Assembly (NCBI GenBank): GCA_963514005.1
Contig: OY740804.1
Coordinates: 4,712,001 to 4,776,000, forward strand
Origin: Raja brachyura
Taxonomy: Eukaryota
Length of the DNA: 64,000 nt
Direction of reading: 5' to 3'
The translations under genes and the position numbers were made by a program. How positions within the stretch are numbered: the stretch's first letter is position 1; each line of letters starts with the position of its first letter. Positions 38,601 to 53,600 of this stretch are shown here, in pieces. Under the pieces are notes generated by a model, which was not told where the DNA came from, ran no database searches, and saw nothing but the letters and a program-made list of their open reading frames with translations.

Positions 38601-41600
38601 CGGATCTCAATAGGCCCCGACCCCGGATGAACAGAGGAAGAGGACTGAACTTTGGTGCCTTCCCTCACAGTTGATTTCGCTGTTTTATGTTAAATTCTAA
38701 AGTGTTACGTTTATCTTATTTGTGTGCTGCACCAATTGGTGTATGTGACAATAAATGTCCTCTGTCCTTGGTACTATAATAACATTTGAAAGACATTTGG
38801 AGTTATGGGCCAAACGTGGACCAATGGGACTAGCTTAGAGCGGCAAGGTGGGCTGAGGGGGCAGTTTCTATGCTGAGGTTTTTTTTTACCAGTGTGGAGC
38901 TATACAAAGATTTTCCTTCCCTTTGTCTCCCAATATATGAGAAACTATGACCACTGATTTCTTATGCCGAGAAATAGGATGCAGCGAGATTACATCTGCT
39001 TCTGTCTAGGGGCTTCTGAGTTTGCCTGTACGTCACTAGTTGGTAGTCATTAGTAAGATTATCACCATCATCAGTGGTGCCCGTAGTTTGCAGAACCGCC
39101 ACTCTGGGTCCAGGATAAACAAGACCTCTTCTGTGCGGTTGGCTCAGTAGAGGTGTTCTTCTTCTTTCGTGTGGCGTGCACAGCCTAAAGTTGTTGGACA
39201 ACTTGTTCTATTTGATCTTCTGTTTGTGCACATTGAGGTGATTGCGTTAGTCGAAACAGGGCGGACCACTTGAAGGTTGCAATCTTCCACCCCAGTAGAG
39301 GTGTTGATGAATCATTTAAATGCTATCATTTAAGTTTAATTTTCTCTAGATGCTACGAGTAGACTTTTGACGCAGCAAGCAAATTTCAGCGTTGTGGGGA
39401 GAATGAAACCTGTGTGCCTTCATTCTGAAATGAGTTCTGGTGTTGTGTTGTCCTGCTCCATTGAACCAGAATCAATCAAATTCTTGCATTGTTTTGAGAA
39501 TCCAAACAGCAGCATGAAGGTCAATCAGTAATTCATTGCTGCCCACTCTGTAATTAACAAAGAGAATGTTTGAAATGATTACATTCAGCCAAAATTAATT
39601 TCAGTGCTTGTTCTTTGCTGAATAGTAGTGATTGGAATGGTTCAGTGATCTTTCAGTCATACAACTTGGAAATAGGCCCTTCGTCCCAACTTGCTCTTGC
39701 CGACCAACATGCCCCAACTACACCAGTCCCACTACCCAGCTTTTGGCCCATATTGTTCTAAACCTATCCTATCTATGTACCTGTCCAAATGTTGTTTTAA
39801 ATGTTGTGATTGTACCTGCCTCAACTACCTCCTCCGGCAGCTTATTCCATATACCTACCACCCTTTGTGTTTATAAATAAATAAATAAAGTTGCCCCTCC
39901 AGTTCTTATCCAATCGTCTCCCCCCCCCCCCCCCCACCCTTCACCTTAAACCTATGAGCTCTGGTATTTGATTCCCCTACTCTGGGTAAATGACTGCAAT
40001 TCAACTTTTTCTATTTCTCATGATCTTGGACACCTCTACAAAGCTAGAGAATGGGCCTTGCTGGTGAACTGTTGCTGAGAATTGGCCCTGACTCAAAGGA
40101 CTGAATGGACTCCATTTATGTACCATTCTCTGGGAAATGCAGAGTTTCAATCTTGGAAAGATGTTTTCTTTAGAATTCCCAGTACTTTTTTTTCCTAAGG
40201 CATTCAGTTCTTCAGAATCGTTACATTAAATGATTCTGATCGCTTATTAAGTGTTCTTCTTGCATTCACCAGTCAGGTTAGTTAAGGCTTCACACTTTGG
40301 TTGTGAGAGGAACTTCTAAAAGCACTTTCACTGTCCAATCTATAAATAGCATTTCACTCCTTACAGTTTCTTGGCAATTGCAGAAGCCGTTCATCTTGAA
40401 AGGTTAAAAGATTTTGCAAATTGCAGCGTAATTTCTTGTCTTTGCCGGATGCAAGGTTGAAGGATGTGCATCACTTCCTTACAACATCGTGATGTGCTGC
40501 AGATTCATAGAGTTACACAGCGCCGAAACAGGCCCTTTGGCCCATCGTGCCCATGCAGACCAAGATGCCCCATCTATGCCAGTCCCACCCACCTGCTCTT
40601 GACCCATATCTCTTTAAACCTATCCTAACCGTGTATCTGTCCAAATGCCTTGTGAATGTTCTGAAAAGTTCAGAGGTTTTATGAGCAGAATTTAGGCTAT
40701 TCGGCCCGTCAAGTCCGCTCCGCCATTCAATCACAACTAATGTACTTTTCCCCTTCACACCCATTCCCCTGCCTTCTTCCCATAACCTTTCATTGTCCTA
40801 TCTGGGACACAAAACAATAAACTCTCTTGAATCTTGACACTACAGTACCTGCCTCAGCTACGTCCCCCGGCAGCTCGTTTCATATACTCCCCGCCCTCTA
40901 TGTGAAAAAATCACATCTCTGGGCAGATTTTTAAAAATCATGCTTGCTAAACATACTCATTTACGCACACTTATTAACTGTTGCACTGTGACTTAAAAGG
41001 GTCAGACAGTATCTGTTGGTTGGGTTTTGATGCAGTTTTGAAGCTTATCTTTTCACGCTTCCTTTTGTGTACGTTTAGTTTAGCCCATTGTCACGTGTAC
41101 CGAGGGACAGTGAAATGCTTTTGTTGCGTGCCATCTAGTCAGCGGAAAGACAATACGTGATTACAATCGATCCTTTTATAGTTTATAGATACATAAAGGA
41201 ATAATGTTTAGTGCATGGTAACACCAGTAAAGTCTGATCAAGGATAGTCCGAGTGTTAGAGAAAGATCTGCAGATACTGGAAAAATCGACGGTAGACAAA
41301 AAAGCTGGAGAAATTCAGCGGGTGAGGCAGCATCTATGGAGAGAAGGAATAGGCAACGTTTCGGATCCAGAAGGGTCTTGACCTGAAATGTCGCCTATTC
41401 CTTCTCTCCCTTAATGCTGCCTGACCCGCTGAGTTTCTCAAGGATAGTCAGAGGGTCACCAATGAGGTAGATAGTAGTTCAGGATTGCTCTCTTGGTGTG
41501 GTAGGATAATTCGGGAAGAAACTGTCCCTGAATCTGGTGGTATGCTTTTTCACTCTTATACCTTTTGCCTGATGGGAGAGGGGAGAAAAGGAAGTGGCCA

Positions 41601-50600: not shown

Positions 50601-53600
50601 GCATTTTGTGTCTATCTTCGGTGTAAACCATCATCTGCAGTTCCTTTCTACACACTGTGGTAAAACTGTTCAAGACAGGAGTTGTAGATTTGGGGGCTTT
50701 CAAGAGATTCAGGGGCATCTTGGTCAGCATGGGCAAGTTGGGCAGAATGGCCTGTTTCCATACAGTATAACTCCTATGACTGAGTCAATGAGCAAAATAT
50801 CCCACAGTGTCTGTGTTATATCACAGATGTTGGTCAGACTAGGATTTTATTCGTTGAAACGCAGGAGGATCAAGGGTGGCCTCACAGAGGTTTTTGTAAG
50901 CTCATGAGAGGAATAAATAGGGTAAATGCAGAGTCTTTGACCCAGAGTAGAGAAAACGACAACCAGAGGACATAGGTTTAAGATGGGAGGAGAAATATTA
51001 AATAGGAACTGGAGGGACATTCTTTTCACACAGAGGGTTGTAAGTATTTGGAACAAAGTAGTTGAGACGGGTACTATCACAATTTTTGATGTGTTGAAGA
51101 ATTTTTGAGCCTGAAGAAGGGTCTCGGCCCTTCGCTCCATATTCCTTCGCTCCATAGATGCTGCCTCACCCACTGAGTTTCTCCAGCATTTTTGACTACC
51201 ATCACAATTTTTAAGAAACCTTTGGACAGGTACATGGATAGGATAGGTTTAGAGAGATATGGGCCAAATGCAAGTAGGTGGGACTAGTGTAGATGGGGAA
51301 TGTGGGTCGGCATGGGCTAGTTGGGCCAAAGGGCCTGTTTCCACGCTGTTTAACTCTATGATTGTATTGGTAACTTCCTTATCCCATTGAGAGCGTGGAT
51401 GAACAGTGTCCTCCAGCGCAGAATGACCCCAACCATAACAATCTGGAGGAGGAGGAGAGATATTCAGTAAGACTTAGAGCTGCTGTTTAGTTAATAATGT
51501 GAATAAAGAATTAGGAAAAAAACCCATATCTACACTTTGCCACCATGTAGTGCTAAATCCGATTTGTGCATCCAGTTTCCTGCACAAAAACACAGGATGG
51601 GTGGACACTGAAAGACCATGAGCTCAGATTTCAGGGACTATAATAGTTCCAGTGTACGTAACAATTAGTTTGAGGAAAAATATCCTGAGGAATTTGTATC
51701 CTTTCCAAAAGAACGGAAATACAAAATGTTGGTGTGGCGTTAGGGTAGTGTGTTGGTTTGGATCATGTTGGTTTGAATCCATGGATGAAGGGGTGCAGAT
51801 ACTTTTATTTAATTGCAGTTTGCACTCTGGAAGTTCTGCAATTGATTAGGTAGGGCCATTGATGACACCGTACAGACTTCTTCTTCTTGCTTATGGCATG
51901 CACAAGCGTAAAGTTGTAGGACAACTTGTTCTATTTGATCTTAGTTGATTGTGCACGCTAGGTTGATTGCATTCGTCGAAACAGGGCGGACCACATGAAG
52001 GTCGCAATCTCCCACACCATCATACAGATGGAGGTTTAAGACAGACACCATTGCATTGTGTCTGCATTTGTGCAGCCAGACTAGCTGCCTCTGCACAATT
52101 TTGCTGGGCAGTTTAAAAAAAAAACACAGCATAGAAACAGTCCCTTCGGCCCATCGAGTCCAGTTCGACCATCGATCACCTGTTTGCACTTTCTCATCCA
52201 CTCCCGACACACTGGGGGCAATTGACAGCCGGCCAATTAACCTACAAACCCGCACGTCTTTGGGATGAGGGAAGAAACCCGGTGATCACAGGGAGAAGGT
52301 GCAAACTCCACACAAACGGCACCCGAGGTCAAGATGGAACCCGGGTCTCTGACGCTGTGAGGCAGCAGCTGCACCTCTGTGCCTCCCTTTTGTGGTTTAC
52401 CGCCTCAGCTCGGTTACAATAGGAAATTCTATCACATGTACAAATATTTCTTGAAAGTGCTTGGTTTTAATTTACGCAAGGATGACATTTGGTGAGTTGC
52501 GGCAATGATGCGTGGAGTTTGTCCGGGCAGGCTTTAAGCAAATCCATCCTCAATGGATTTCAATTCAGGAATGCGAAGTCATCTTATCTGGCTGAGTTTC
52601 AGACTAAAGGGCCTGTCCCACCAGCACGCAACTCTATGCGATGAACGCGATCAAACCGGCAGCGGGGGCCGTGCGGAGGTCGGGTGATCCCCTGTACAGG
52701 GCCGGTCCCACCTGCATGCGGCAAGCGCAACTAAACCGGCAGTAGGGGCCGCGCGGAGGTTGGGTGAGTGGCGCAACGCAGCGCAAAGCGAGGCGAACTT
52801 GAAGCAAGTCCAAGGTAAGTTCACCAGGACTTAGAGGGGCACACAGAGAGGGGCACCGAGACACACACACATACAGGGCCACGGAGCCACACACATAGAG
52901 GGTCACGGAGGCACTTACAAATAGTTTCATGGAAGCACGATGTCCGGGCGGTGTGTAAATGTCGCGGCGACTGCGAGCCGACAAACCGTTGCCGCGCGGG
53001 ATTTTTGGACATTGTCGGTTTTTCGGAGCCCGACGTCCCGGGGTCGGGACGAACTCGGGACGAATTCCGCACGGCTCTGGCGATCGAAGTGGGACCGACG
53101 CCGGACGGCTCAAGCGACCACGTTAGGTCGCGCTAATCGCATCGAGTTGCATGCTGGTGGGACAGGCCCTTTATGTCTGCATATGTGCTATTTTAAATAA
53201 CCACTTGAATTATACATACATCGATACGTAGACAATAGGTGCAGGAGTAGGCCGTTCAGTGTGATCATGGCTGATCATCCACAATCATGACCTCGTTCCT
53301 GCCTTCTCCCCATACCCCTTGATTCCACTAGCCCGAAGAGCTCTATCTAACTCTCTCTTCAATGCATCCAGTGAATCGGCCTCCACAGCCTTCTGGGGCA
53401 GAAAATTTCACAAATTCACAACTGTGTGAAAACGTTTTTCCTCATCTCAATTCTGAATGGCCTCCCCATTATTCTTAAACTGTGGCCCCCCTGGTTCTGG
53501 ACTCCCCTAACATTGGTAACATGGTCCCAACCCAAAACTTCACCTATTCACATTTTTCATAGATGCTGCCTGACCCACTGAATTACTGCAGCACTTAGTG

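What the first reader, a model, noticed from the sequence alone, without database searches (positions are those of the whole stretch)
39158..52018. Family of ~140-bp retroposons headed by a minimal (54-nt) HDV-like self-cleaving ribozyme, three copies in AHCYL1 intron 1
Seen: three homologous elements (39158-39293 -, 49172-49307 +, 51877-52018 -), each with its own 9-12 bp TSD and an (AAG)n tail, and no tRNA A/B boxes. The first 54 nt map onto the HDV-like nested double pseudoknot. P1 is GGGGTGG/CCGCCCT with a G1.U wobble, P2 is GATTGCA/TGCAATC and P3 is ACC/GGT. L3 is 7 nt (consensus TTCACGT), followed by a single G for P1.1. P4 is reduced to a U-A pair closing a UUCG tetraloop, and J4/2 is C-N-A-A with the catalytic C. 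In copies A and C the element boundary set by the TSD falls at G1, the predicted cleavage site. Established: HDV-like ribozymes process the 5' ends of R2, RTE and ingi/L1Tc-type non-LTR retrotransposons. Inference: this is a promoterless SINE-like unit that cuts itself out of host read-through transcripts and borrows a LINE reverse transcriptase, possibly ingi/Vingi-like given the tail. Its ribozyme is unusually small for a vertebrate. I cannot say whether the family is already catalogued.
Basis: partly seen in the sequence, partly recalled or inferred. Interest (0 to 1): 0.9.

Follow-up and report, generated by a model that had tools for sequence, protein, structure and literature searches.

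The report
Ribozyme-headed mini-retroposon from a Vingi-type LINE
A short jumping element, present in thousands of copies in a vertebrate genome, is the two ends of a longer retrotransposon joined together and starts with an unusually stripped-down RNA fold that probably cuts it free from longer transcripts; the general strategy is already known, but so small a version of this fold was reported mainly from gut viruses, and the cutting has not been tested.

Summary
Observation confirmed. The three elements are decayed copies of a 136-bp family of about 28,000 copies (95% CI 7,700-73,000). The genome holds 1,320 exact copies of one intact 54-nt head. Target-site duplications, an empty orthologous site in another organism and contig ends in four runs all put the 5' boundary at G1.

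The autonomous partner is in the same genome: a ~3-kb single-ORF APE+RT LINE without RNase H (Vingi architecture). It shares the head (~72 nt) and the last ~36-45 nt. So this is a bipartite internal-deletion derivative, like R2 SIDEs and NARTc, not a new SINE class.

The HDV-like fold is supported by homologues. A second family here has the same core with a real P4. Eight of 45 related LINEs have one just upstream of the ORF (controls 0 of 270). This head is the shortest, with essentially no P4.

Cleavage and 'promoterless' are untested. None of the three window copies is intact. AHCYL1 versus AHCYL2 is unresolved. Dfam, Repbase and patents could not be checked. The scan had no look-alike sequence, only an analogous fungal case. 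Verdict: new variant of a known kind.

The parts
39158..39293 (-). Copy A, 136-bp bipartite non-autonomous element, antisense to the host gene
   Evidence: nearest genome copies 96-97% identical; absent at the orthologous site in run X20, present in run X22
39240..39293 (-). Copy A HDV-like head (G1 = 39293); carries C24A and an A16.C48 mismatch
39294..39305 (.). Copy A target-site duplication, 5' side (12 bp, perfect)
   Evidence: the empty site in X20 has one copy only
39146..39157 (.). Copy A target-site duplication, 3' side
49172..49307 (+). Copy B, sense to the host gene; starts at head position 3 (lacks G1-G2) and has U20A
49172..49223 (+). Copy B head, positions 3-54
49163..49171 (.). 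Copy B TSD, 5' side (8 of 9 match with 49307-49315)
   Evidence: sequence
51877..52018 (-). Copy C, oldest of the three (13% from the family majority), antisense to the host gene
51965..52018 (-). Copy C head (G1 = 52018); G3U breaks P1, C24U, A16G keeps a G.U pair
52019..52028 (.). Copy C TSD, 5' side (8 of 10 match with 51867-51876)
   Evidence: sequence
26364..26606 (+). Context: first recognisable coding exon of the AHCYL1/2-family host gene
   Evidence: ATG and GT donor seen; no database hit on its own, so 'exon 1' is inferred
54446..54560 (+). Context: next host exon (end approximate); further exons near 57262 and 59429

Best explanation
The element is a bipartite, non-autonomous derivative of a Vingi-type LINE of the same genome. 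It consists of the LINE's first ~72-78 nt, a ~20-nt linker that forms a hairpin with the tail, and the LINE's last ~36-45 nt (final codons, stop, 17-nt 3' UTR, (AAG)n). Shown: the shared ends, the TSDs and the boundary at G1. Inferred steps: (1) a copy is transcribed inside a longer Pol II transcript, possibly also from a promoter in the head; (2) the 54-nt HDV-like double pseudoknot folds and cuts 5' of G1, with C44 as the catalytic cytosine; (3) the LINE's APE/RT protein binds the 3' end in trans and inserts the RNA by target-primed reverse transcription, giving mostly 8-14-bp TSDs and full-length copies that start at G1. The ribozyme was inherited from the LINE and has lost P4.
For: Partner: a 3'-end pattern excluding the short element's middle gave 242 hits, and 20 of the 30 fetched are LINE bodies. 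APE and RT domains were found by Pfam. L180 is collinear with residues 29-1019 of P0001, a 1,019-aa APE+RT protein without RNase H. Seven of 20 fetched endonuclease-region copies begin with the same head, in sense, ~110 nt before the ATG. Boundary: 43 of 86 copies have a confident TSD; 21 end right before G1, 11 at +1/+2, and 11 end 1-6 nt upstream; the chimeric control gave 5 of 300. There is an empty site for copy A in X20, and contig ends pile at 39293/39294 in 4 of 4 runs. Fold: Rfam RF02682 (an HDV ribozyme) is the top hit, aligning over exactly nt 1-54 (E 0.81). It also aligns to the second family's head (E 0.002-0.004). Eight of 45 related LINE loci carry the fold 30-105 nt upstream of the ORF; controls gave 0 of 270 and coding regions 0 of 49. 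P1/P3 show 24 two-sided changes against 7.4 in shuffles and at most 6 in slid controls. LINE and short-element heads differ only at J1/2, the free N45 and U5-A32 versus U5.G32. The required U20, C24, G25, C22-G37 and C-N-A-A match published descriptors.
Against: No cleavage assay exists, and the runs offered were contigs only, so no RNA 5' ends could be read. Rfam scores are far below the gathering threshold (16 and 31-32 bits versus 44). Pseudoknot-free folding is no better than shuffles (z 0.05). Covariation inside the family is almost nil, and the cross-family set was picked by a descriptor that demands pairing, so one search is partly circular; only position and strand are independent. 37 of 45 related loci showed no ribozyme. 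A C24A variant is shared by 9 of 86 copies, although C at this place is called conserved. P1.1 has one Watson-Crick pair, J1/2 is 2 nt and P4 is absent; in Agam-2, 0-1-nt spacers gave little or no activity, so the rate may be low. An internal promoter would give the same G1 boundary. All LINE copies seen are broken (median pairwise identity 89.6%); the intact driver of the youngest short copies was not found.
Confidence: 0.75

Rival explanations
1. Same bipartite element, but the head works mainly as an internal Pol II promoter (Pr77-like) that starts at G1. The P4-less fold is slow or vestigial as a ribozyme.
For: In L1Tc/NARTc the same 77 nt are both promoter and ribozyme. Ends at G1 are predicted equally well. 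P4 is lost, P1.1 is weak, and a C24A sub-lineage spread.
Against: All catalytic-core positions are kept between the LINE and the short subfamilies, while J1/2 and N45 vary. Natural P4-less HDV-like ribozymes are active. Homologous heads covary in their helices rather than keep their sequence.
Confidence: 0.15
2. The fold is kept as a protein-binding, RNA-protecting or translation-helping 5' module (5' junction formation, exonuclease block, IRES-like role for the LINE); cleavage is incidental.
For: Such roles are described for R2 ribozymes. At least 12 of 70 distinct LINE loci have an inverted head abutting a truncated body, which suggests that the head is held near the integration site.
Against: The catalytic C and the L3 reverse-wobble nucleotides are conserved across families, which a binding role alone would not require.
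Confidence: 0.07
3. A Pol III SINE with a decayed tRNA-derived head that resembles the fold by chance.
For: The head contains TTCGA, which recalls a B-box core (sequence).
Against: No strict A or B box and no tRNA. The head is the LINE's own 5' end. The descriptor gave 0 hits in 1.92 Mb of resampled sequence.
Confidence: 0.03

Closest known systems
Bipartite non-autonomous Vingi derivatives (Vingi-1_EE internal deletions; as cited in Kojima 2018, PMC5786205, passages read; Kojima 2011 itself not held)
   Same: 5' end plus 3' end of a single-ORF, RNase-H-less APE LINE; no RNA-gene head.
   Different: [quoted passage not shown] Here both the LINE and its derivative start with an HDV-like fold.
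R2 SIDEs of Drosophila (Eickbush and Eickbush 2012, PMC3414825, passages read)
   Same: Ribozyme head plus LINE 3' end, released from a co-transcript and mobilised in trans; cleavage was shown there.
   Different: SIDEs are rDNA-specific, rare and larger (529 bp in D. willistoni) with a large J1/2. This family is dispersed, 136 bp, with about 10^4 copies and a 54-nt head.
NARTc/RIME/SIDER with the Pr77/L1TcRz head (PMC3383444 abstract; PMC4035085 one passage)
   Same: Ingi-group non-autonomous elements sharing a ~77-nt HDV-like head with their LINE; cleavage 5' of +1.
   Different: Those are trypanosomatid elements and the head is a proven promoter. Here the host is a vertebrate, the partner lacks RNase H and promoter activity is untested.
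Minimal (P4-less) HDV-like and theta ribozymes (Kienbeck 2024, PMC10879173, passages read; Riccitelli 2014 not held)
   Same: No P4 helix; core otherwise canonical.
   Different: Nearly 99% were found in Caudoviricetes phages, often beside tRNAs, and the search that added human, mouse and protist genomes reported extra hits only in bacteria. This one heads a vertebrate retroposon. The theta descriptor itself was not tested here.
CPEB3 ribozyme (PMC4836649, passages read)
   Same: Vertebrate HDV-like fold with U20.G25 and a P1.1 of one G-C plus U-U.
   Different: CPEB3 is single-copy, conserved and has a full P4; this one is multicopy and mobile.

Membership tests
HDV-like ribozyme | Nested double pseudoknot P1/P2/P3/P1.1 with G1.Y at the cleavage site | tested here: met
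   Intact copies pass the strict descriptor (33 family hits); RF02682 aligns over nt 1-54; 1,320 exact copies of one intact head. The 3 window copies fail.
HDV-like ribozyme | Conserved L3 U20/C24/G25, C22-G37, catalytic C in C-N-R-A | tested here: met
   C44 in 75 of 76 short and 12 of 12 LINE-type heads, but 30 loci had been selected on exact nt 36-54; descriptor. C24A in 9 of 86.
HDV-like ribozyme | Helix covariation | tested here: inconclusive
   Strong across 11 homologues, but they were chosen for pairing; within the family only U5-A32/U5.G32.
HDV-like ribozyme | Rfam gathering score | tested here: not met
   0 hits in the window; 16 bits versus 44; second family 31-32 bits. The model expects P4.
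HDV-like ribozyme | Mg2+-dependent self-cleavage lost in the C-to-U mutant | not testable with these tools
   Needs an in vitro assay.
Minimal (P4-less) HDV-like ribozyme | No P4 helix | tested here: met
   6 nt between G37 and C44, versus 17-39 nt in 8 homologues and a hairpin in the second family.
Theta ribozyme | Theta motif, next to a phage tRNA | tested here: not met
   No tRNA; retroposon context. The motif itself was not run.
Bipartite non-autonomous LINE (SIDE) | 5' end shared with an autonomous LINE | tested here: met
   First 72 nt align to the 5' end of L193; 7 of 20 loci.
Bipartite non-autonomous LINE (SIDE) | 3' end shared with the same LINE, no coding capacity | tested here: met
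   Last 36-45 nt shared; the linker has no convincing match in the LINE body.
Bipartite non-autonomous LINE (SIDE) | TPRT hallmarks (TSD, simple-repeat tail, empty site) | tested here: met
Vingi clade (partner LINE) | Compact single ORF with APE and RT, no RNase H (PMC13708176 section 5.1) | tested here: met
   None of 120 listed homologues has PF00075; 1 (P0012) lists LTR-type RNase H with integrase, probably a fused gene model.
Vingi clade (partner LINE) | RT phylogeny, sister to Ingi | not testable with these tools
   No labelled Vingi or Ingi reference was returned; resemblance to Vingi-1_Acar is recalled, not from a call.
Classical SINE (tRNA/7SL/5S head, Pol III) | RNA-gene head with A/B boxes | tested here: not met
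Named Dfam/Repbase family | Match to a catalogued consensus | not testable with these tools
   Neither database is available; the scan's own index had no look-alike.

The most novel reading that the evidence does not exclude
Vingi-type LINEs of animals commonly begin with an HDV-like ribozyme, which the papers searched do not report for this clade. In this vertebrate lineage one of them lost P4, giving an active 54-nt minimal ribozyme of a type so far tied to gut phages. It is present in over a thousand perfect copies that can cut host transcripts when in sense orientation. The same head is engaged by the RT at the second strand, producing stereotyped head-only 5' inversions unlike L1 twin priming.
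Probability: 0.45. Interest if true: 0.7.

Novelty: new variant of a known kind. Interest (0 to 1): 0.55.

Why it matters
It would give a natural minimal HDV-like ribozyme a clear role in a eukaryote; the theta-ribozyme paper calls the origin and function of minimal forms open. It would add Vingi to the ribozyme-headed LINE clades, which fits Kojima's observation that only RTE, Ingi, Vingi and R2 make bipartite derivatives: a self-defining 5' end lets a derivative stay complete. Two independent derivative families in one genome, one with P4 and one without, form a natural comparison. The element marks the minimal cis ends (about 75 + 40 nt) of a LINE class used for RNA-only gene insertion, where the native 5' UTR is kept. 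Thousands of intronic copies make selection against sense-strand intact ribozymes testable.

Tried and rejected
Rfam at gathering threshold on the window: 0 hits. A pattern for a LINE sharing the element from nt 63 onward gave 9 hits; 8 were variant or rearranged short copies and 1 a fragment, so the shared 3' part is shorter. A pattern for heads followed by other sequence gave 224 hits; the 30 fetched were short-element variants or interrupted or inverted copies, not LINE 5' ends. The LINE 5' end was reached through the endonuclease region instead. No LINE body lay in the 380-kb random sample or the window (listing limited to hits of one query). The linker was not found in the LINE body. Thermodynamic folding was uninformative. 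No ribozyme was seen upstream of two other Vingi-like copies, L185 and L186. RNA expression: 23 runs from 12 studies and 8 organism codes hold the sequence, 1 on record as RNA, all contigs, so expression and cleavage could not be read. Host exon searches found nothing (searches used a wrong exon-2 range). The organism was not placed below 'vertebrate'; 'cartilaginous fish' is my untested guess, used only for search terms. Orientation (2 antisense copies, 1 sense copy lacking G1-G2) is anecdotal at n = 3. Literature searches found no paper on a Vingi ribozyme or on this family. Kojima 2011, Ruminski 2011 and Riccitelli 2014 are not held; patents, Repbase, Dfam and supplements were not seen and may already describe it.
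Full report
OBSERVATION. The three elements are at the stated coordinates, are 84-90% identical, and are the only copies in the window. A has a perfect 12-bp TSD ending at G1 (39293). C has a 10-bp TSD with two transitions ending at G1 (52018). B has a 9-bp TSD with one mismatch and starts at head position 3. There is no tRNA, no strict A or B box and no Rfam hit at gathering score. The host is a vertebrate AHCYL1/2-family gene on the + strand. The paralogue is unresolved: exon 4 favours AHCYL1 by 0.9 bit, the named hits of exon 3 say AHCYL2, and GST-mu-like exons upstream recall the AHCYL1 neighbourhood (recalled, not from a call).

FAMILY. In the 2.7-Gb genome, copy A gave 887 candidates; apart from A itself, the 40 scored were 96-97% identical. 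Four copies, all spanning the element end to end, lay in 380 kb of arbitrarily placed 10-kb stretches (38 of 40 requested existed). That gives about 28,000 copies (95% CI 7,700-73,000). Exact counts are 5,215 for a 35-nt core and 1,320 for one complete 54-nt head, with reversed-pattern controls at 0. Incidentally found copies are 2-13% from the majority sequence. The sequence is held by 23 listed runs under 8 organism codes.

5' BOUNDARY. Of 86 short copies, 43 have a confident TSD, mostly 8-14 bp. Twenty-one end right before G1, 11 at +1/+2 (partly chance G matches) and 11 end 1-6 nt upstream. Chimeric controls gave 5 of 300. Laying four runs on window 38850-39600 gave two independent results. 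Run X20 has an orthologous contig with one TSD copy and no element; the missing part is 39158-39305. Contigs of other copies stop matching at 39293/39294 in all four runs (152, 120, 381 and 53 contigs; 411 weaker loose-end rows were not shown). Run X22 shares the filled site. So the family begins at G1 and kept inserting after the split from the X20 organism, which has many copies of its own.

PARTNER. A pattern for the 3' end with a different middle gave 242 hits, and 20 of the 30 fetched are 3' ends of a LINE. Its ORF ends with a C-x-C-x8-H-x4-C knuckle and stops 17 nt before the (AAG)n tail. Walking upstream gave RT and APE domains. L180 (G000:C21:44499201-44505900) is a near-complete ~3-kb copy, collinear at 52-76% with residues 29-1019 of P0001, an intact 1,019-aa relative with APE, RT, a weak zf-RVT hit and no RNase H. 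That is the Vingi architecture as defined in PMC13708176 section 5.1; phylogenetic placement could not be tested. I fetched the upstream DNA of 20 of the 23 other endonuclease-region hits. Seven begin in sense with the same head, at positions 1-9, and run through a short 5' UTR to the ATG; two carry the head inverted. The short element is the LINE's first ~72-78 nt, a ~20-nt linker not found in the LINE, and the last 36-45 nt. All LINE copies seen are broken, with median pairwise identity 89.6%.

RIBOZYME. Intact heads read P1 1-7/30-36, J1/2 2 nt, P2 10-16/48-54, P3 17-19/27-29, a 7-nt L3, G37, six nucleotides, then C44-N-A-A. The fixed features of a published descriptor are present (PMC6326823 passages), except that P1.1 has one C-G pair plus a possible U.U, as in CPEB3 (PMC4836649 passages). 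A strict descriptor over all sequence then held gave 33 family hits and one other, and 0 in 1.92 Mb of resampled sequence. The other hit heads a second family of ~195 bp (882 candidates) with its own TSDs (12 of 20 confident, 7 of them at 0/+1), an (AAG)n tail and a real P4 hairpin. Rfam RF02682 aligns full-length to it (E 0.002-0.004) and to nt 1-54 of our family (E 0.81), both below gathering. From 72 metagenome loci of related LINEs I took the 55 whose match begins in the N-terminal part; 45 had enough upstream DNA. Eight carry the fold in sense, 30-105 nt before the ORF; two of the eight are close relatives. Controls were 0 of 270 (reverse strand and shuffles) and 0 of 49 coding stretches. 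Their G37-to-C segments are 17-39 nt, against 6 nt here. On a sequence-only alignment of 11 heads, P1, P3 and P1.1 are 92% paired with 24 two-sided changes (shuffles 7.4, slid controls at most 6), but those rows were selected for pairing. Against: folding without pseudoknots is not better than shuffles; within-family covariation is one consistent change; 9 of 86 copies share C24A; very short J1/2 spacers slowed another HDV-like ribozyme (PMC4908430 passages); and 37 of 45 relatives showed no fold.

MECHANISM. Shown: bipartite structure, TPRT hallmarks, 5' end at G1. Inferred: transcription within longer Pol II RNAs, self-cleavage 5' of G1 through C44, and trans-mobilisation by the LINE protein. 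I put cleavage by intact copies at about 0.8 and the whole model at 0.75. 'Promoterless' is open, because the L1Tc/NARTc head is both promoter and ribozyme (PMC3383444 abstract). At least 12 of 70 distinct LINE loci (88 rows, 18 of them overlaps) have the head, from nt 2-16 (nt 1 in one case) to nt 72-110, inverted against a body truncated anywhere from about nt 175 to 2,840. Of 11 inverted cases checked, three have clean 10-13-bp TSDs, two have weak ones and six have none. This fits twin priming that runs to the RNA's 5' end, with a second priming site just behind the ribozyme. Among the LINEs tested in cell lines, 5' inversions were nearly confined to human L1 (PMC4245944 passages).

COMPARISON. 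Ribozyme-headed internal-deletion derivatives are known: R2 SIDEs (PMC3414825 passages) and NARTc and relatives. A review notes that some LINEs and SINEs of metazoans use HDV-like ribozymes (PMC6765202 passages). Bipartite Vingi derivatives are known too, but Vingi is not among the six ribozyme-bearing clades listed by Kojima 2018 (PMC5786205 passages). Searches for Vingi with ribozyme terms returned no paper describing one (listings, plus passages of two of the papers). P4-less HDV-like ribozymes were reported as nearly 99% phage-borne (PMC10879173 and its preprint, passages). Kojima 2011, Ruminski 2011 and Riccitelli 2014 are not held and are known here only through citing papers. Dfam, Repbase, patents and supplements were not seen. 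The scan's index had no look-alike sequence and one analogous fungal case.

VERDICT. A real feature that works like an R2 SIDE or NARTc element and is a member of the bipartite non-autonomous LINE kind. It is structurally an HDV-like ribozyme, with activity untested. What looks new is the clade, the P4-less head in a vertebrate and the copy number. New variant of a known kind; interest 0.55.

Noticed in passing
L117:1116-1182 (-), L210-L229: A second SINE-like family (~195 bp, 882 candidates) with its own HDV-like head including P4, an (AAG)n tail and TSDs near G1. It seems to include the start of a LINE ORF; its autonomous partner was not sought.
   Followed up: partly
L145, L146, L148, L153/L182, L157/L183, L170, L172, L086, L091, L100, L196, L203: Truncated LINE copies with the 5' head (to nt 72-110) inverted against the body; TSDs confirm single events in three.
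   Followed up: partly
L076, L133, L134: Short-element copies with an inverted 5' part; in L076 G1 lies at the junction.
   Followed up: partly
L089, L093: Rarer, independent internal-deletion derivatives of the same LINE with a different junction (LINE 5' UTR joined to the last ~35 nt).
   Followed up: no
L180:2601-2739: A short-element copy inserted, with a TSD, into the 5' coding region of its own parent LINE.
   Followed up: yes
L185, L186, L187, L189: Other Vingi/ingi-like LINE families in the genome (36-42% identical to the partner), with open frames up to 584 aa; no head found in the DNA held.
   Followed up: partly
L230, L238, L243, L246, L263, L272, L274, L289: Eight HDV-like ribozymes at the 5' ends of related LINEs in metagenome contigs; L272 and L289 resemble the window family most.
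   Followed up: partly
family-wide: The base before G1 is T in 30 of 61 intact-start copies, suggesting a target-site or cleavage-site preference.
   Followed up: no
window 5664, 9264, 10535 (+): Exons of a GST-mu-like gene upstream of the AHCYL gene (label recalled from motifs, not from a database call).
   Followed up: no
window 15093-17342 (+); 44869-45585 (-): A CR1-like LINE with a 750-codon open frame and a closely related 3' fragment (family label recalled).
   Followed up: no
window 2895-3881 (-): A 329-codon frame with gag-knuckle and RNase-H-like segments, probably a degenerate LTR retrotransposon; observed only.
   Followed up: no
window 26364-26606 (+): An 81-codon N-terminal exon of the AHCYL gene with no database match in one search, in a GC-rich island.
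   Followed up: partly
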